Source of the DNA: Escherichia coli
GTDB taxonomy: Bacteria; Pseudomonadota; Gammaproteobacteria; Enterobacterales; Enterobacteriaceae
Length of the DNA stretch: 64,000 bases
Assembly: GCF_029227855.1 (NCBI RefSeq)
Contig: NZ_CP074356.1
Reading direction: 5' to 3' (one strand)
Part shown: positions 4,824-63,445 of the stretch, one piece after another
Numbering within the stretch: the first letter of the stretch is position 1
Layout: each line of letters begins with the position of its first letter
The notes under the pieces: model-generated
The model's input: only the letters and a program-made list of their open reading frames with translations
What the model was told of the DNA's origin: nothing
The model's database searches: none
Position numbers and translations under genes: made by a program

Positions 4824-5410
4824 GTGATGAACGCTACCAACAGCGTCAGCAGCGAGTGAAAGAAAAAGTCGATGCTCGTGTGGCCCAGGCCCAGGATGAA
4901 CGCGGTATTATCATCGTCTTTACCGGCAATGGAAAAGGCAAAACCACCGCGGCATTTGGTACGGCAACTCGTGCAGTAGGCCATGGCAAAAAAGTGGGTA
5001 TCGTGCAGTTTATTAAAGGCACCTGGCCTAATGGCGAGCGCAATCTACTGGAGCCACATGGCGTTGAGTTTCAGGTGATGGCAACGGGCTTTACCTGGGA
5101 TACACAAAATCGCGAATCTGATACCGCGGCCTGCCGTGAAGTCTGGCAACATGCCAAACGAATGCTGGCCGATCCTTCACTGGATATGGTTTTGCTCGAT
5201 GAGCTGACTTATATGGTGGCGTATGATTATTTGCCACTGGAAGAAGTGGTGAAGGCGTTAAATGAACGTCCACATCAGCAAACCGTCATTATTACGGGTC
5301 GTGGTTGTCATCGGGATATTCTTGAACTGGCGGATACGGTAAGTGAATTACGCCCAGTGAAACATGCGTTTGATGCCGGTGTTAAGGCGCAAATAGGGAT
5401 TGATTATTAA
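4820..5410 (+). CDS. btuR: cob(I)yrinic acid a,c-diamide adenosyltransferase
   Basis: 196 aa; P-loop-like GNGKGKTTAAFG; translationally coupled to yciK. Confidence 0.9.
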   Translation: MSDERYQQRQQRVKEKVDARVAQAQDERGIIIVFTGNGKGKTTAAFGTATRAVGHGKKVGIVQFIKGTWPNGERNLLEPHGVEFQVMATGFTWDTQNRESDTAACREVWQHAKRMLADPSLDMVLLDELTYMVAYDYLPLEEVVKALNERPHQQTVIITGRGCHRDILELADTVSELRPVKHAFDAGVKAQIGIDY

Positions 5411-5415
5411 GAGAA

Positions 5416-5446
5416 AGCACCTCAAAAGATCGCCTCTTGAGGTGCT
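5416..5446. terminator. inverted repeat between convergent btuR and islet operon
   Basis: Perfect 10 bp stem AGCACCTCAA/TTGAGGTGCT with 11 nt loop, flanked by A/T; lies between the btuR stop and the stop of the 102 aa minus-strand gene. Confidence 0.5.
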
Positions 5447-5462
5447 TTAATCATAATTATAT

Positions 5463-5771
5463 TCAAGCGGCAATAGCAAAACTCAGAATCCGTTTTATCT
5501 CATTCAAATGTCCCTGATATGCTTCATGATTCTCAGCGTCAACATCTTCAATAAATAATATCAGTTCAGTAATTAACGCATTAGCATCGTCATAATTTAT
5601 CCCGGCTAACTCTGGCGAAGTTTCAGTACCATAGTTTATCGTCAGGTTGTTCATAACTGTGAGGATATGGATAAAGTATTTATGACAAACATTGCATGTG
5701 GTTTTATTACCCAAAGTATTATACAGCATATCAAGTAATGCCAGTATTCTACGGTTTTGCACATCGTTCAT
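5463..5771 (-). CDS. hypothetical 102 aa protein, second gene of low-GC islet (acidic C-terminal half, CxxCH motif)
   Basis: ORF track 102 aa MNDVQNRRILALLDMLYNTLGNKTTCNVCHKYF...; strong SD (TAGGAGGT) 7-8 nt upstream of ATG at 5771; only 10 nt after the stop of the upstream lipoprotein gene; AT-rich codon usage unlike flanking genes. No homolog recognised from memory. Confidence 0.6.
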   Translation of the reverse strand: MNDVQNRRILALLDMLYNTLGNKTTCNVCHKYFIHILTVMNNLTINYGTETSPELAGINYDDANALITELILFIEDVDAENHEAYQGHLNEIKRILSFAIAA

Positions 5772-5781
5772 AAAAAACCTC

Positions 5782-6783
5782 CTATAACATTATTCCGCTG
5801 GCAATAAGTAATTTTGCCAGCCCCTCAGACGCCTTTAACCCACTAATGACCTGTGCGCGTAATATTTCATTTAATCTTTTTTGTTCAGCTGCCGTGCGTG
5901 TTTTATTAACGTATAAGCTTTTCAGATAATCACCCTTATCTATAAAGGCATTTAAAGCCTCAATCGCAGGCATGGCAGGTGCCGATGCCTGTAGTCTGGT
6001 TTCATTCACATTGATTACTGAACTTAGAAACTCCTTCCTGTTTTTCAGAGTGTTAAACTCTGTATTCTTAGAGTTTTTAGATGCCGTATTATAATAAAAC
6101 ATATTATCATGCACATTCGCAAAGGTATAATTTTCAATCTTATTGCTTTTTGTATAAATATCATTGCGCAAAACTGCCATGTTCTTTATAAGTCTTACCC
6201 AGTTTTCATCTACCGTTTTGCCTATTTTTCCAGAATTGACTTTAATTATATATAACTCATTGAAATAATTTACCAAATCTTTAACCGCTGCTGCAGATTG
6301 AGCTAAATCTTTGCTATGTGAAACACCAAGTAGTGTTTGTGCGTTGTTTGCGTGATCCAGAGCCTGTTTAAGTAATGCCACTTGCTGACTTTCCGTAGTT
6401 GCCATATCCTTTGTCAGAAGTTCCACATAAGCGCTCATGCTATTAATGACTTCCATTGAAGCCAGTAATTTTTCTTTCTCGAAAGGGACTAATTGTACTT
6501 GTTTTGTATTTGGCCCTGAACGCTGGCATAATTTTCCGCCATTCCCATCACCGCCTATATCAATGGTATAATCAGGTCGCAGGGCACAATCCGGATTAGT
6601 CGCGTAGAAATTAACAAGGAAGTTTTCACGAGAAGCATAGTATTGTTTAAAGAAACTTGCATTCGCCGCTACTGCTTTGTTACCCGCAGTAATAACAGTT
6701 TCAGCTTGTTCGTTTTTCAATGCTTCAGTTGCACAACCTGAAAGCATTAACAGCGATAGAAATATTCCACTATATCTAATCAT
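5782..6783 (-). CDS. hypothetical lipoprotein (333 aa), first gene of low-GC islet; predicted outer-membrane sorted
   Basis: N-terminus MIRYSGIFLSLLMLSGC: basic n-region, hydrophobic core, lipobox L-S-G-C; residue after Cys is Ala (not Asp). SD GAGGTGGG upstream of ATG at 6783. Mature part is Asn/Lys-rich with two further Cys. GC about 28-37 percent in sampled 60 bp stretches versus about 50 percent in flanks. Confidence 0.7.
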   Translation of the reverse strand: MIRYSGIFLSLLMLSGCATEALKNEQAETVITAGNKAVAANASFFKQYYASRENFLVNFYATNPDCALRPDYTIDIGGDGNGGKLCQRSGPNTKQVQLVPFEKEKLLASMEVINSMSAYVELLTKDMATTESQQVALLKQALDHANNAQTLLGVSHSKDLAQSAAAVKDLVNYFNELYIIKVNSGKIGKTVDENWVRLIKNMAVLRNDIYTKSNKIENYTFANVHDNMFYYNTASKNSKNTEFNTLKNRKEFLSSVINVNETRLQASAPAMPAIEALNAFIDKGDYLKSLYVNKTRTAAEQKRLNEILRAQVISGLKASEGLAKLLIASGIML

Positions 6784-6914
6784 AACCCACCTCTTGACGT
6801 TGAATTTATCTCAGATAATTAAATAGTAATGTGGCTATTTCCGGGTATTATTCATAAGCAAGTATGAAATTAAATTAAAATACTGCGACTATTTATCATG
6901 CTTCAAATGAAGAA

Positions 6915-6940
6915 AAGGCCCCGCAGGGCCTTTATTTTAT
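6915..6940. terminator. bidirectional hairpin terminator downstream of rluB
   Basis: GGCCCCGCAGGGCC stem-loop flanked by A-run and T-run just after the rluB stop (minus strand); also bounds the islet promoter region. Confidence 0.6.
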
Positions 6941-6952
6941 ACTTATCTTAAA

Positions 6953-8038: not shown

Positions 8039-9934
8039 TTACCAGCCACCACCGCCTCCGCCACCCGCCCCGCCGCCAGCACCACCACCGGAATAACTTC
8101 GCCCCAACAAACTGGTATTGGCCCCCAGGCTCAGGTGCGTCTGTAATGAGAATAAAACGCCACTACGGGCAATTTCCGGGGCGCGAACAGCCGCTGTGAG
8201 TGATGGGGTGATACGTGCTGCCCATTCTCTGCCAAGGTTTGCCGAGACCGCCCAACCTAACAACGCGTAATCCAGTTTCCGTGTTTCCCCTTTCCGCCGC
8301 CGCCCACTGTGTGTTGCCGCCTCTTTACGCGCAAGATAGTTAACGATAGCTTCACCGTGGGCATAACGTTGCTGCCCAGTTTGGGTAAACTTTGGCAGAA
8401 AAATATACCCTATGCCAGTGAGATAACCGGTCAGGAAAACAGCGCTAAAATAACCCGCTGGCATATACCAGTAAAAGAATACATCTCCGACATTGATATA
8501 GAGAGAATAGAAGGCCACGCCTGAACAAATCAGTGGTAAAAACAAAGTGATGATTACACGATTAACGCAAGGCTTGTCATCATCGCGGGCAAATAAAAGC
8601 TCTAGGGAACAAAATAAAAAAGGAAGAAGCCAGCAGATCATAATAAACATATCGCCTACCAGACTCATTCCTGCCCAGCCTACGGGACTCAGGTTACCGT
8701 AGAGAATGACCGCCAATATTGCCATTCCGCCCCATTGCAAAAACGCATCAGGTCGGTAAAACGAAGACTTTTTACGCGGCAGATAAAATTTCTGCATCCG
8801 TAAAAATGCCTTGCGTAAGACTCTGTTGCGTCTCCCCGTAAGAACGACCTTATCGCCTTTACGAAATAACGCTTCCAGTAATAACTGCTCTGCGGGCAGT
8901 AATACCGCATTATTTCTGGTCGCGCCTTCATTAACACGAATCAGGATTTGCTGGTTCTTGTCATACTGATCTTTCAGATGAATTTTGCCTTTCACAATCA
9001 GATTTACGATATCGGCACAAAAACCTTTATCGTCGTAAACCAGTTTCGCATCGAGACGTAACATGCCGGGCGTGTAATCTGGCGGAATGACATCGGTTTC
9101 AATCACATCTACCGGCGTAAATTGTGGCCTGCGCTTCCAGAGATATAACCATCCACACGCCAGGAACAGACACGGAAACCAAATTAACAACGATGACGTA
9201 GAGGGTAAAAGAAGATGGCTGTAAATATTCGTCGTTTGTGGTGCCGGGGCATTACCAAGTAAAGCGTGAGGCCAGCGGTAGAGGACCGTGAAGTCTTCAC
9301 GATAAAACGGATCGCGGGATTCAATTCTTCCGTCCTCAAGGATGCGGCCATTTCGATATGTGTCGCCCTCTTCTCCAGTAAAGAGATCAATTTCGCTAAA
9401 TGGATTACCCGCAATATCAGGCAACTGGAGAGAAAATCGGGTCTTATAGATTTCAAACGGCCACTTGTTACCGGTCACGTTCCAGATTAACAGATCTGAA
9501 TCTCCCTCACGCAGGAAAGCATTTTTAACCTGATAATGAATTTGATAATGATAGTCGCCTTGAGGCAAGAAACGTTGTTTATCGCCCACGACAATACTCA
9601 TTAACCCGATATGCCAGTCAAGATGCCAGGGTTCAGGAATACCATCACGGGTGACGCCAACAATATGATAGTTCAGTAGTGCAGCGTCCCCATTAGGCTG
9701 CATCCATAGTCGTGGTAAATCACGATAAAATCCGTGCTTAATCTGCTGATTTCGCGCCTGAAAATGAATATTTTCTTTGATGTCGAGCACCCCATCCGGT
9801 TGCAGAGTGGCTTCAACATCAAAGAGCGAGATCCCTTCTTCATAAGAAGGGATCTCCGTGTTTTCTGCATAACTTAGAGATGCTACAAACAGCCCTGCTA
9901 TCAACAGCAAAATGCAGCGAAACTTCCCTGCCAT
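8039..9934 (-). CDS. yciQ: DUF2207-type membrane protein YciQ
   Basis: 631 aa; signal peptide, several TM helices, glycine-only C-terminal tail (GGGAGGGAGGGGGGGW). Confidence 0.85.
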   Translation of the reverse strand: MAGKFRCILLLIAGLFVASLSYAENTEIPSYEEGISLFDVEATLQPDGVLDIKENIHFQARNQQIKHGFYRDLPRLWMQPNGDAALLNYHIVGVTRDGIPEPWHLDWHIGLMSIVVGDKQRFLPQGDYHYQIHYQVKNAFLREGDSDLLIWNVTGNKWPFEIYKTRFSLQLPDIAGNPFSEIDLFTGEEGDTYRNGRILEDGRIESRDPFYREDFTVLYRWPHALLGNAPAPQTTNIYSHLLLPSTSSLLIWFPCLFLACGWLYLWKRRPQFTPVDVIETDVIPPDYTPGMLRLDAKLVYDDKGFCADIVNLIVKGKIHLKDQYDKNQQILIRVNEGATRNNAVLLPAEQLLLEALFRKGDKVVLTGRRNRVLRKAFLRMQKFYLPRKKSSFYRPDAFLQWGGMAILAVILYGNLSPVGWAGMSLVGDMFIMICWLLPFLFCSLELLFARDDDKPCVNRVIITLFLPLICSGVAFYSLYINVGDVFFYWYMPAGYFSAVFLTGYLTGIGYIFLPKFTQTGQQRYAHGEAIVNYLARKEAATHSGRRRKGETRKLDYALLGWAVSANLGREWAARITPSLTAAVRAPEIARSGVLFSLQTHLSLGANTSLLGRSYSGGGAGGGAGGGGGGGW

Positions 9935-11597: not shown

Positions 11598-11642
11598 ATG
11601 AAAGCAATTTTCGTACTGAAAGGTTGGTGGCGCACTTCCTGA
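11598..11642 (+). CDS. trpL: trp operon leader peptide (14 aa)
   Basis: atgaaagcaattttcgtactgaaaggttggtggcgcacttcctga = [14 protein letters not shown] with tandem Trp codons; too short for ORF track. Confidence 0.92.
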
Positions 11643-11683
11643 AACGGGCAGTGTATTCACCATGCGTAAAGCAATCAGATACC

Positions 11684-11712
11684 CAGCCCGCCTAATGAGC
11701 GGGCTTTTTTTT
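11684..11712 (+). terminator. trp attenuator (leader terminator)
   Basis: CAGCCCGCCTAATGAGCGGGCT hairpin followed by TTTTTTTT, about 25 bp upstream of trpE. Confidence 0.9.
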
Positions 11713-40062: not shown

Positions 40063-40774
40063 AATAAATATCCTCCGGCATAGCCGGAGGTTTTTCAAAT
40101 GCGCCTATAAGGCTCTCTTACCAGCCGCGCCCTAACAGGCGCACACGATCTGACATTTGCATCCAACTTCGTTACTTACGGCCCGTAAACGGGCTGCCCG
40201 GATAGGGAATCGATAACTGCTCTCCCATTTTATCCTCTTCAAGCTGGTGCTTTATGTAATCCTGTATCTTCGCCGTGTTCTTACCCACCGTATCGACGTA
40301 GTACCCTCTGCACCAGAACTCCCTGTTCCTGTATTTGAATTTCAAATCACCAAACTGCTCGTAAAGCATCAGACTGCTTTTCCCTTTCAGATATCCCATA
40401 AAGCCGGATACGCTCATTTTGGGCGGGATCTCCACAAGCATATGGATATGATCTGCACAGCATTCAGCTTCCAGAATCCGTACACTTTTCCACTCACACA
40501 GCTTTCTCAAAATACTGCCTATTGCTCTACGCTTCTCTCTGTAGAACACCTGTCTTCGGTATTTTGGCGCAAAAACTATGTGATATTTACAGTTCCATCG
40601 GGTGTGCGCTAAGCTCTTTTCGTTCCCCATTGGGACCCCCTTTTGATTTCTTGTTTGACACTTGCAGTTGCCAGACCGCAAGGTGTTTTAACAAATCAAA
40701 AGGGGTTTTAATAACTGGCTTAAAGCTGAAAGCTTTCCGGAACCCCCAGCCTAGCTGGGGGTTTTCTGTGCACA
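40063..40774 (-). mobile_element. IS200 copy 1 (IS200/IS605 family), head-to-tail with copy 2
   Basis: About 712 bp unit with tnpA (HuH/Y1 transposase) and subterminal palindromes (CCTCCGGCATAGCCGGAGG at one end; CCCCCAGCCTAGCTGGGGG at the tnpA-proximal end). Boundaries are ambiguous by 1-3 nt. Confidence 0.85.
40172..40630 (-). CDS. tnpA: IS200 transposase TnpA (152 aa)
   Basis: Start refined to MGNEKSLAHTRWNCKYHIVFAPKYRR...; HxH motif (ADHIHMLVEIPP) and catalytic Tyr region (YIKHQ). Confidence 0.88.
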   Translation of the reverse strand: MGNEKSLAHTRWNCKYHIVFAPKYRRQVFYREKRRAIGSILRKLCEWKSVRILEAECCADHIHMLVEIPPKMSVSGFMGYLKGKSSLMLYEQFGDLKFKYRNREFWCRGYYVDTVGKNTAKIQDYIKHQLEEDKMGEQLSIPYPGSPFTGRK

Positions 40775-41487
40775 AATAAATATCCTCCGGCATAGCCGGA
40801 GGTTTTTCAAATGCGCCTATAAGGCTCTCTTACCAGCCGCGCCCTAACAGGCGCACACGATCTGACATTTGCATCCAACTTCGTTACTTACGGCCCGTAA
40901 ACGGGCTGCCCGGATAGGGAATCGATAACTGCTCTCCCATTTTATCCTCTTCAAGCTGGTGCTTTATGTAATCCTGTATCTTCGCCGTGTTCTTACCCAC
41001 TGTATCGACGTAGTACCCTCTGCACCAGAACTCCCTGTTCCTGTATTTGAATTTCAAATCACCAAACTGCTCGTAAAGCATCAGACTGCTTTTCCCTTTC
41101 AGATATCCCATAAACCCGGATACGCTCATTTTGGGCGGGATCTCCACAAGCATATGGATATGATCTGCACAGCATTCAGCTTCCAGAATCCGTACGCTTT
41201 TCCACTCACACAGCTTTCTCAAAATACTGCCTATTGCTCTACGCTTCTCTCTGTAGAACACCTGTCTTCGGTATTTTGGCGCAAAAACTATGTGATATTT
41301 ACAGTTCCATCGGGTGTGCGCTAAGCTCTTTTCGTTCCCCATTGGGACCCCCTTTTGATTTCTTGTTTGACACTTGCAGTTGCCAGACCGCAAAGTGTTT
41401 TAACAAATCAAAAGGGGTTTTAATAACTGGCTCAAAGCTGAAAGCTTTCCGGAACCCCCAGCCTAGCTGGGGGTTTTCTGTGCACAA
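40775..41487 (-). mobile_element. IS200 copy 2, directly abutting copy 1
   Basis: Second unit, same orientation, no spacer; differs from copy 1 at a handful of positions; ends at the A-run of the galU terminator. Confidence 0.85.
40884..41342 (-). CDS. tnpA: IS200 transposase TnpA (152 aa), copy 2
   Basis: Protein identical to copy 1 in the ORF track although the DNA differs at a few sites. Confidence 0.88.
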   Translation of the reverse strand: MGNEKSLAHTRWNCKYHIVFAPKYRRQVFYREKRRAIGSILRKLCEWKSVRILEAECCADHIHMLVEIPPKMSVSGFMGYLKGKSSLMLYEQFGDLKFKYRNREFWCRGYYVDTVGKNTAKIQDYIKHQLEEDKMGEQLSIPYPGSPFTGRK

Positions 41488-46282: not shown

Positions 46283-46367
<85 letters not shown>

Positions 46368-46401
46368 TCTCAAGCATTACCTCAAAATTTGAATTACCCC
46401 T

Positions 46402-46486
<85 letters not shown>

Positions 46487-46672
46487 TCACTTTTCAAAAG
46501 TCCGTGAACTCTCAAACGAATCCGCAATTAAATATTCTGCCCATGCGGGGAAGGATGAGAAGCTTCGACCAAGGTGCGACTCGGGCGCCAGCGAGAAAGC
46601 GTTGCCGCAGGCAACGACCCGAAGGGTGAAGCGCGCAGCGCTGAGTAATCCTTCCCCCACCACCATCACTTC
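46487..46672 (+). ncRNA. rttR: tyrT operon distal repeat unit (rtT-like) ending in a copy of the tRNA 3' terminus
   Basis: About 186 bp after tyrV ends with TCCTTCCCCCACCACCATCAC, repeating the last 19 nt of the tRNA; matches the recalled organisation of the K-12 tyrT distal repeats. One unit seen here. Confidence 0.4.
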
Positions 46673-62792: not shown

Positions 62793-62858
62793 GAAAGAGA
62801 AAACCCCCGCACGTTGAGAGGTAAAACCTGACAACAGAACGGGGGCTAATCTTGAACC
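62793..62858 (-). ncRNA. rdl: Rdl-type antisense RNA (antitoxin), copy 1
   Basis: Minus strand reads GGTTCAAGATTAGCCCCCGTTCTGTTGTCAGGTTTTACCTCTCAACGTGCGGGGGTTTTCTCTTT, matching recalled Rdl sequence and ending in a stem plus U-tract; lies antisense to the ldr leader. Ends approximate. Confidence 0.5.
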
Positions 62859-62911
62859 ATCAACAATTCAAGAATAGCCGCAAAATGTTGTCATTACAAC
62901 AAGGCGGCTAT

Positions 62912-63327: not shown

Positions 63328-63393
63328 GGAAAGAGAAAACCCCCGCACGTTGAGAGGTATAACCTGACAACAGAACGGGGGCTAATCTTGAAC
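63328..63393 (-). ncRNA. rdl: Rdl-type antisense RNA (antitoxin), copy 2
   Basis: Same sequence as copy 1 with one or two substitutions. Confidence 0.5.
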
Positions 63394-63445
63394 CAGAACA
63401 ATTCAAAATAGCCGCAAAATGTTGTCATTACAACAAGGCGGCTAT

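What the first reader, a model, noticed from the sequence alone, without database searches (positions are those of the whole stretch)
5463..5771. Islet gene 2: 102 aa protein with CxxCH motif and acidic C-terminal half, translationally coupled to the lipoprotein
It has its own strong SD (TAGGAGGT) immediately after the upstream stop, which is a classic operon junction. It lacks a signal peptide or TM helix. A single C-N-V-C-H motif sits near residue 26-30, and the C-terminal 45 residues are very acidic (many D/E). Small acidic proteins encoded directly downstream of an exported protein are often immunity, chaperone or anti-activator partners; this is a hypothesis only.
Basis: inference. Interest (0 to 1): 0.55.

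Follow-up and report, generated by a model that had tools for sequence, protein, structure and literature searches.

The report
Orphan small partner of lipoprotein gene
This is a real gene for a small, acidic, cytoplasmic four-helix protein of an undescribed family that always sits directly behind one particular lipoprotein gene, in about a quarter of E. coli strains and on a mobile element in another genus. It is almost certainly that lipoprotein's functional partner, but its actual job is untested.

Summary
A 102-aa ORF lies on the minus strand at 5771→5463. It has C26-N-V-C29-H30, no signal peptide or TM helix, and a C-terminal 45 aa with net charge −7. Its GGAGG overlaps the lipoprotein's TAG stop.

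The window is E. coli chromosome. The two genes form a low-GC, self-contained unit between btuR/cobO and rluB. It is present in 1237 of 5426 complete genomes; 4183 have the K-12-type empty site.

The ORF is under purifying selection (dN/dS 0.11–0.17). AF2 predicts a four-helix bundle. It matches nothing in Pfam, NCBIfam, PADLOC, PHROGs, PDB or AFDB.

An exhaustive HMM search of 1.84 billion proteins found only Escherichia/Citrobacter copies and one remote homologue (37% identity). That homologue is on a Duffyella gerundensis integrative conjugative element (ICE). It also sits directly behind a homologue of the lipoprotein (26% identity), with a GGAGG close after the stop.

So the pairing is supported, but "immunity/chaperone" is not shown. 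The CxxCH is not a haem-c site: the protein is not exported, and His30 is Lys in Duffyella. The invariant residues are CxxC plus His88.

The small-protein type does not follow the lipoprotein's variable body, which argues against allele-specific toxin/immunity pairing. Interest is moderate.

The parts
5463..5771 (-). Small gene: 102-aa acidic cytoplasmic four-helix-bundle protein (ATG 5771, stop 5465-5463). Invariant residues across the family include C26, C29, H88, N22 and the helix-3 block A63-N64-x-x-I67-T68-E69-L70-x-L72-F73-I74.
5772..5784 (-). Operon junction TAGGAGGTTTTTT. The lipoprotein stop TAG (5784-5782) shares its G with SD GGAGG (5782-5778), followed by a 6-nt T spacer before the ATG.
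   Evidence: GGAGG is conserved in all homologous loci, and the stop lies inside the SD in Escherichia and Citrobacter. No masking RNA structure was found.
5782..6783 (-). Lipoprotein gene: 333 aa, signal peptide with lipobox L-S-G-C17, Ala at +2, conserved C66 and C86, predicted all-alpha with one hairpin, pI 8.9.
6486..6584 (-). Hypervariable segment of the lipoprotein gene (codons ~67-100), 32-52% nucleotide identity between E. coli alleles and with indels. It starts at a sharp recombination breakpoint near 6585.
6784..6913 (-). AT-rich upstream region with the lipoprotein SD (GAGGTGG) and presumably the promoter. It is 95-100% identical between E. coli alleles. A block GTCGCA-N17-CATACT is shared with Citrobacter (read by eye).
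   Evidence: No consensus sigma-70 site was called on this strand.
5414..5448 (.). 15-bp hairpin between the btuR stop and the small-gene stop, followed on the minus strand by UUUCUCUU. Likely a bidirectional terminator that closes the two-gene unit.
   Evidence: -23.9 kcal/mol, z -6.25
6914..6933 (.). rluB terminator hairpin, which insulates the islet from rluB read-through.

Best explanation
The ORF encodes a cytoplasmic, acidic four-helix-bundle protein. It is the obligate second subunit of a two-gene lipoprotein module. The module has its own promoter region, then the outer-membrane lipoprotein gene, then a GGAGG overlapping the stop, then the small gene, then a terminator. Shown: the gene is real. 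It is always co-inherited and co-oriented with the lipoprotein gene, including after transfer to an unrelated genomic context. It is more conserved than the lipoprotein. Inferred: it is made together with the lipoprotein and acts as a dedicated binding or neutralising partner, in the manner of an immunity protein or holdase. It would use the conserved acidic helix-3 face (N64, T68, E69, L72, D76) against the basic lipoprotein, most plausibly the lipoprotein's conserved N- or C-terminal parts rather than the variable body. Contact would occur before export or when the lipoprotein re-enters a cell. The invariant Cys26-x2-Cys29 at the start of helix 2, together with His88, is inferred to be a structural Zn or redox site. 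It is not a haem-c attachment site.
For: Real gene: dN/dS is 0.11-0.17. AF2 gives a four-helix bundle with pLDDT 87 and pTM 0.82 for the best model. Pair conservation: there is strict co-occurrence in E. coli. The pair has the same position in E. albertii, E. whittamii and Citrobacter. An exhaustive HMM search of 1.84 billion representative proteins found no full-length family member apart from these and P0043. P0043 (37% identity) lies 14 nt behind a 347-aa lipoprotein homologue (26% identity, E 3e-29), as cargo of an integrative conjugative element (ICE) in Duffyella gerundensis. GGAGG lies 4-6 nt before the ATG in all loci. The charges are opposite. The small gene stays intact where the lipoprotein gene is frameshifted (L015) or fragmented (L012). 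This is the pattern expected of an antidote, but it rests on only two cases.
Against: The two proteins are predicted to sit in different compartments. No toxin, enzyme or other domain is recognisable in the lipoprotein. Its AF2 model is poor (pLDDT 46.6). The small-protein type does not track the lipoprotein body type. No sequence or fold match exists to any immunity, antitoxin or chaperone family. Within Escherichia and Citrobacter the co-occurrence is partly plain linkage in a 1.5-kb islet, so only the ICE copy is an independent observation. No complex prediction could be run.
Confidence: 0.35

Rival explanations
1. A co-expressed but independent cytoplasmic sensor or regulator. The CxxC...His bundle senses redox state or metal and acts on a host factor, in the manner of an anti-sigma or connector protein. 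The lipoprotein does the envelope part of the same job, and the two do not bind each other.
For: C26, C29 and H88 are invariant down to 37% identity. CxxC sits at the N-terminus of helix 2 of a four-helix bundle. This geometry is known from zinc-binding anti-sigma (ZAS) domains (own knowledge). This reading fits the different compartments of the two proteins. It also fits the lack of co-variation with the lipoprotein body.
Against: The ZAS motif H-x3-C-x2-C is not present, because the position is an invariant Asn22. There is no zf-HC2 or other Pfam match. No sigma factor or regulator gene is adjacent in any locus. A pI of 4.8 argues against DNA binding.
Confidence: 0.22
2. The islet is a pair of orphan immunity genes against incoming interbacterial toxins (T6SS, CDI or bacteriocin). 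One is a periplasmic or outer-membrane lipoprotein and the other is cytoplasmic.
For: The islet is patchy: present in 23% of E. coli and variable within Citrobacter. It has low GC, 0.31-0.42 against 0.50-0.56 in the flanks. The alleles are ancient (dS about 1) with a hypervariable exposed segment. A copy is carried as ICE cargo beside an Mrr-type nuclease gene. No effector-like gene is present in the unit.
Against: Two unrelated immunity genes would not be expected to stay fused as a stop-overlapping bicistron down to 26% and 37% identity. The only immunity-family hits, to a T6SS immunity lipoprotein family and to the Exc2 family, have E about 0.06-0.09 and cover only the signal peptide. At 333 aa the lipoprotein is large for an immunity protein.
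Confidence: 0.13
3. The CxxCH marks a haem-binding c-type cytochrome-like protein.
For: A C-x-x-C-H motif is present in all Escherichia and Citrobacter copies.
Against: Covalent haem attachment by the Ccm system takes place in the periplasm (established knowledge), and this protein has no export signal. His30 is Lys in the Duffyella homologue, while both Cys are kept. No cytochrome family matches.
Confidence: 0.02
4. It is not a functional gene, but a chance or decaying ORF in an AT-rich islet.
For: There is no family, no structural neighbour and a very narrow distribution. Occasional truncated copies exist (P0013, P0015, P0016, P0046).
Against: dN/dS is 0.11-0.17. Length, start codon and SD are conserved across genera. 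The AF2 fold is confident. 457 of 458 and 775 of 776 E. coli copies are full length at the DNA level.
Confidence: 0.03

Closest known systems
SitA lipoprotein toxin / SitI immunity of Myxococcus (PMC5562445, PMC8546572)
   Same: An outer-membrane lipoprotein gene is followed directly by a small gene for a protein without an export signal. The N-terminal part of the lipoprotein is conserved and the rest diverges between strains. The module is carried on mobile DNA in one lineage.
   Different: SitA carries recognisable and mutually unrelated C-terminal toxin domains (nuclease, tRNase), and SitI is specific for its cognate toxin. Here all lipoprotein alleles are homologous over their full length, no toxin domain is detected, and the small-protein type does not follow the variable part. 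Delivery in Myxococcus needs TraA/B outer-membrane exchange, which is not known in Enterobacterales (own knowledge).
Colicin/pyocin DNase immunity proteins (Im7/Im9 type, Pfam PF01320)
   Same: A protein of roughly 85-100 aa that is acidic, cytoplasmic and a four-helix bundle. It is encoded immediately downstream of a larger basic protein and has its own strong SD.
Zinc-binding anti-sigma (ZAS) domains
   Same: A small cytoplasmic helical bundle with a conserved CxxC and a conserved His.
   Different: The H-x3-C-x2-C signature is absent, with Asn22 at the His position. There is no Pfam hit and no neighbouring sigma factor gene.
c-type cytochromes (CxxCH)
   Same: The five-residue motif.
   Different: There is no export signal, the motif His is not invariant, and the fold is an orphan four-helix bundle.

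Membership tests
c-type cytochrome | CxxCH motif present and conserved, including the His | tested here: not met
   The motif is present in the window, but the His is Lys in the Duffyella homologue while both Cys are invariant.
c-type cytochrome | Export to the periplasm (signal peptide) for haem attachment | tested here: not met
   Maximum 19-residue hydropathy is 0.93. Residues 3-21 form helix 1 of the bundle.
Colicin/pyocin immunity (PF01320) | Profile match to the family | tested here: not met
   Pfam scans of the protein and of all 11 family members gave nothing at E<=0.1.
Colicin/pyocin immunity (PF01320) | Encoded downstream of a toxin with a recognisable cytotoxic domain | tested here: not met
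   The upstream lipoprotein has no Pfam, NCBIfam, PADLOC or PHROG domain. The only hit is a marginal HEPN_DZIP3 match (E 8.5e-4) in one Citrobacter member.
SitA/SitI lipoprotein toxin-immunity | The upstream gene encodes an outer-membrane lipoprotein (type II signal, lipobox) | tested here: met
   L-S-G-C17 with Ala at +2. The lipobox is conserved in all homologues, including Duffyella (L-S-S-C).
SitA/SitI lipoprotein toxin-immunity | Polymorphic, mutually unrelated C-terminal toxin domains | tested here: not met
   The alleles align over their full length at 65-67% identity, and the C-terminal 30 aa are conserved.
SitA/SitI lipoprotein toxin-immunity | The downstream protein type co-varies with the toxin's variable part | tested here: not met
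   Small type A goes with body A (424 genomes) and with body C (34 genomes), and 424+34 = 458.
SitA/SitI lipoprotein toxin-immunity | Toxicity of the lipoprotein and neutralisation by the downstream protein | not testable with these tools
   This needs expression and competition experiments.
ZAS anti-sigma domain | H-x3-C-x2-C zinc motif, profile match, adjacent ECF sigma gene | tested here: not met
   Asn22 is invariant at the His position. There is no Pfam match. The neighbours are cobO and rluB, or ICE genes.
Known anti-phage defence systems (PADLOC 2.0) | Match of either protein to a defence-system model | tested here: not met
   There were 0 families at E<=1 for the E. coli, Citrobacter and Duffyella proteins.

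The most novel reading that the evidence does not exclude
The pair is a new lipoprotein-based antagonism or exclusion module of Enterobacterales. The surface-exposed lipoprotein would act on other cells or phages, which would explain its three ancient alleles and hypervariable disulfide-flanked loop as products of balancing or diversifying selection. The orphan-fold cytoplasmic CxxC protein would be its antidote. In function this would be a SitA/SitI-like system, with no homology to any known toxin or immunity family, sitting in pandemic lineages such as ST131.
Probability: 0.12. Interest if true: 0.75.

Novelty: new variant of a known kind. Interest (0 to 1): 0.4.

Why it matters
About 23% of complete E. 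coli genomes carry this two-gene unit, among them ST131 strains, and it was present in every E. albertii locus examined. Neither protein has a family, a fold neighbour or a paper. The locus shows unusually deep allelic divergence for an E. coli chromosomal site (dS about 1) and a hypervariable loop. That pattern suggests interaction with something that evolves, such as phage, a toxin, the host or other bacteria. If the small protein proves to be an antidote or export partner of the lipoprotein, it would define a new protein family and perhaps a new envelope-based competition or exclusion system. If not, it is one more narrowly distributed accessory gene of unknown function.

Tried and rejected
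Haem-c reading of the CxxCH: rejected, because there is no export signal and the His is not invariant.

Tat signal from R7-R8: rejected. The RR is absent in Duffyella, the putative h-region holds Asp14, and the segment is helix 1 of the bundle.

Family searches for both proteins and their distant homologues gave nothing significant. These covered Pfam, NCBIfam, PADLOC, PHROGs and PDB sequences. The zf-FCS hit has E 0.14. The T6SS-immunity-lipoprotein and Exc2 hits cover only the signal peptide.

The HEPN_DZIP3 hit in the Citrobacter lipoprotein (E 8.5e-4) was set aside. The R-N-D-I-x-T stretch lacks the His, and its Arg is Leu in other alleles.

There were no phage or viral copies. The three 'plasmid' hits are a 4.9-Mb record and two fragments of one assembly, not real plasmids.

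RNA structure masking the SD, which would mean strict translational coupling, was not found.

Literature searches by RefSeq protein accessions and by locus genes found nothing relevant.

The genome-contig scan used E. coli-like patterns and found only E. whittamii and E. albertii.

The lipoprotein family was not searched exhaustively. The word-index search with the alignment did not even return the Duffyella protein, so solo lipoprotein homologues elsewhere cannot be excluded.

Full report
**Where the window comes from.** The window is E. coli chromosome, with gene order topA, yciN, sohB, yciK, btuR/cobO, the islet, rluB, yciQ, yciO, rnm, trpE. In K-12, btuR and rluB converge with 39 bp between them and share one hairpin. 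Here 1.5 kb is inserted at 5411-6952. Its GC content is 0.31-0.42, against 0.50-0.56 in the flanks.

The insert is a closed transcription unit on the minus strand:
- The rluB terminator hairpin lies at 6914-6933.
- An AT-rich upstream region follows.
- The 333-aa lipoprotein gene runs from 6783 to 5782.
- The 102-aa gene runs from 5771 to 5463.
- A 15-bp hairpin at 5414-5448 (-23.9 kcal/mol, z -6.25) is followed by UUUCUCUU.

**Checking the observation.**
- The motif C26-N-V-C29-H30 is there, and these are the only two Cys.
- No hydrophobic segment exists; the maximum 19-residue hydropathy is 0.93.
- The C-terminal 45 residues have net charge -7 and pI 4.2. The N-terminal 57 are neutral.
- The junction reads TAG-GAGG-TTTTTT-ATG, with the lipoprotein's stop forming the first bases of the SD.

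The ORF is a real gene. dN/dS is 0.11-0.17 where dS can be measured. At the DNA level the copies are full length in 457 of 458 and 775 of 776 E. coli genomes. The best of five AF2 models, built from a 10-sequence alignment, is a four-helix bundle with helices at 3-21, 27-43, 60-78 and 82-95. It has pLDDT 87 and pTM 0.82; the other four models score 53-64.

Strict translational coupling is not shown. No RNA structure hides the SD in four homologues.

**What family it belongs to.** None that has been described.
- Pfam, NCBIfam, PADLOC and PHROGs gave no significant hit for the E. coli, Citrobacter or Duffyella versions, and PDB sequences none for the E. coli protein or the lipoprotein profile.
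- Foldseek against AFDB50 returned nothing at E<=0.001.
- RefSeq calls both genes 'hypothetical protein'.
- No paper mentions the accessions.

An exhaustive profile search of 1.84 billion representative proteins found 11 hits. All but two are the Escherichia/Citrobacter cluster or fragments of it. One of the two is a repetitive 1356-aa protein at E 1e-3, taken as spurious. The other, P0043 (95 aa, E 9e-8), is a true remote homologue at 37% identity.

**Evidence on the partnership.** Within E. coli the islet is a presence/absence polymorphism.
- 1237 of 5426 complete genomes have it.
- 4183 have the K-12-type empty junction.
- Small-gene type A is in 458 genomes and type B in 776, which sums to 1234.

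The pair sits at the same place in E. albertii, E. whittamii, Citrobacter and an unnamed metagenome contig. That alone could be linkage.

The independent evidence is P0043. It lies in Duffyella gerundensis, inside an integrative conjugative element (ICE). The element carries TraG-D, DUF2859, RAQPRD, DUF3262, DUF2976, DUF3487, DUF2895, DUF3438 and TraC_F_IV genes. P0043 is convergent with an Mrr_cat gene. It sits 14 nt behind a 347-aa lipoprotein that is 26% identical to the E. coli one (E 3e-29). That lipoprotein again has a lipobox, and a GGAGG lies 4 nt before the small gene's ATG.

So the gene order, spacing and SD survived divergence to 26% and 37% identity and a move to a different genomic context. 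This is good evidence for a functional unit.

**Evidence bearing on the mechanism.** The lipoprotein has L-S-G-C17 with Ala at +2, which predicts outer-membrane sorting by the established Lol rule. It has two more invariant Cys, C66 and C86, compatible with a periplasmic disulfide. It is basic, with net charge +5.

Its E. coli alleles are mosaic:
- The promoter and codons 1 to about 66 are 95-100% identical.
- A sharp breakpoint lies near 6585.
- A hypervariable stretch at 6584-6486 has 32-52% nucleotide identity, with indels.
- The body is 52-82% identical at the nucleotide level.
- The C-terminal 30 residues are conserved.

dS between allele types is about 1. That is far deeper than ordinary E. 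coli core divergence (own knowledge).

There are three body types: A in 424 genomes, C in 34, and B by inference in 776. Type C is a recombinant that returns to type A sequence near 5885. As a result, type A small protein serves both body A and body C.

The small protein is always more conserved than the lipoprotein: 72% against 65% between types A and B, and 37% against 26% to Duffyella. It therefore does not behave like an allele-specific immunity protein for the variable part. If it binds the lipoprotein, it should bind the conserved ends.

In two loci the lipoprotein gene is broken while the small gene is intact. These are the E. albertii type strain (L015) and the metagenome contig L012. 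This is suggestive of an antidote, but it is only two cases.

**The Cys motif.** Across the whole family C26, C29 and H88 are invariant. H30 is Lys in Duffyella. With no export signal, covalent haem attachment is excluded.

CxxC lies at the N-terminal end of helix 2. H88 is in helix 4, at the same end of the bundle; this is inferred from the helix order, as coordinates could not be measured. A Zn or redox site is therefore plausible but unproven. The ZAS signature H-x3-C-x2-C is not met, because Asn22 is invariant at that position.

**Verdict.** The interpretation that this is a partner of the lipoprotein is supported at the level of genetic coupling. The specific roles are untested, and allele-specific immunity is disfavoured.

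My best explanation is a dedicated cytoplasmic binding or neutralising partner of the lipoprotein, with a Cys2-His site (confidence 0.35). The rivals are:
- an independent redox or metal-sensing regulator (0.22);
- a pair of orphan immunity genes (0.13);
- a cytochrome-like protein (0.02);
- a non-functional ORF (0.03).

It is an undescribed protein family in a familiar-looking arrangement. Interest is moderate. It would rise sharply if toxicity and antidote activity, or an exclusion function, were shown.

Noticed in passing
window 6486-6584 (lipoprotein codons ~67-100); L002, L004: The lipoprotein gene has three deeply diverged allele types in E. coli, with dS about 1. A hypervariable, indel-rich segment starts right after conserved Cys66. 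The promoter and first ~66 codons are 95-100% identical between types. This is a signature of recombination plus balancing or diversifying selection on an exposed loop.
   Followed up: partly
window 5411-6952 versus L009 2729-2767 (K-12): The islet is a presence/absence polymorphism: 1237 genomes carry it and 4183 have the empty site. The K-12 empty site has a different shared terminator hairpin and no remnant or direct repeats of the islet. The same locus is occupied in E. albertii, E. whittamii and some Citrobacter. Ancestral presence with loss, or replacement through flanking homology, is therefore more likely than site-specific insertion.
   Followed up: partly
L008 788-1485; hit H34: In some E. 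coli strains an IS1 element sits at this locus. In Ec-U3 it lies between cobO and rluB in place of the islet. In NZ_OZ546911 it interrupts the islet.
   Followed up: no
L015 2898-3916; L012 6946-7987: The lipoprotein gene is frameshifted in the E. albertii type strain NBRC 107761 and fragmented into three ORFs in one Duffyella-like metagenome contig. The downstream small gene is intact in both.
   Followed up: partly
P0038 (Citrobacter lipoprotein) residues 137-221; window lipoprotein residues ~205-212: There is a marginal Pfam HEPN_DZIP3 match (E 8.5e-4, 19.6 bits) in one member, with 3 of 11 members at E<=0.1. The stretch L-R-N-D-I-x-T resembles the HEPN R-N-x3-H motif but lacks the His, and the Arg is Leu in other alleles. 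Probably spurious.
   Followed up: partly
L010 8459-9220: In the Duffyella ICE the pair is convergent with a gene for an Mrr_cat restriction-endonuclease-like protein. It lies between the coupling-protein module and the mating-pore module, which looks like a cargo or defence spot.
   Followed up: no
window 6800-6870; L005 ~4880-4940: An upstream block is conserved between E. coli and Citrobacter: GTCGCA, 17 nt, CATACT. The hexamers are kept while the spacer sequence changes. It may be a weak promoter, but it was not called by the consensus scan.
   Followed up: no
window 11619-11712, 40640-40763, 41352-41475, 46283-46665, 62798-62863, 63334-63399: Rfam matches elsewhere in the window: the trp leader, two STnc490 sRNA copies, two tRNAs with RtT RNA, and two rdlD antitoxin RNAs. 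All are ordinary for this E. coli region.
   Followed up: no
window 8039-8090 (yciQ 3' end, minus strand): YciQ (DUF2207, 631 aa) ends in a long Gly/Ala run, ...SGGGAGGGAGGGGGGGW.
   Followed up: no
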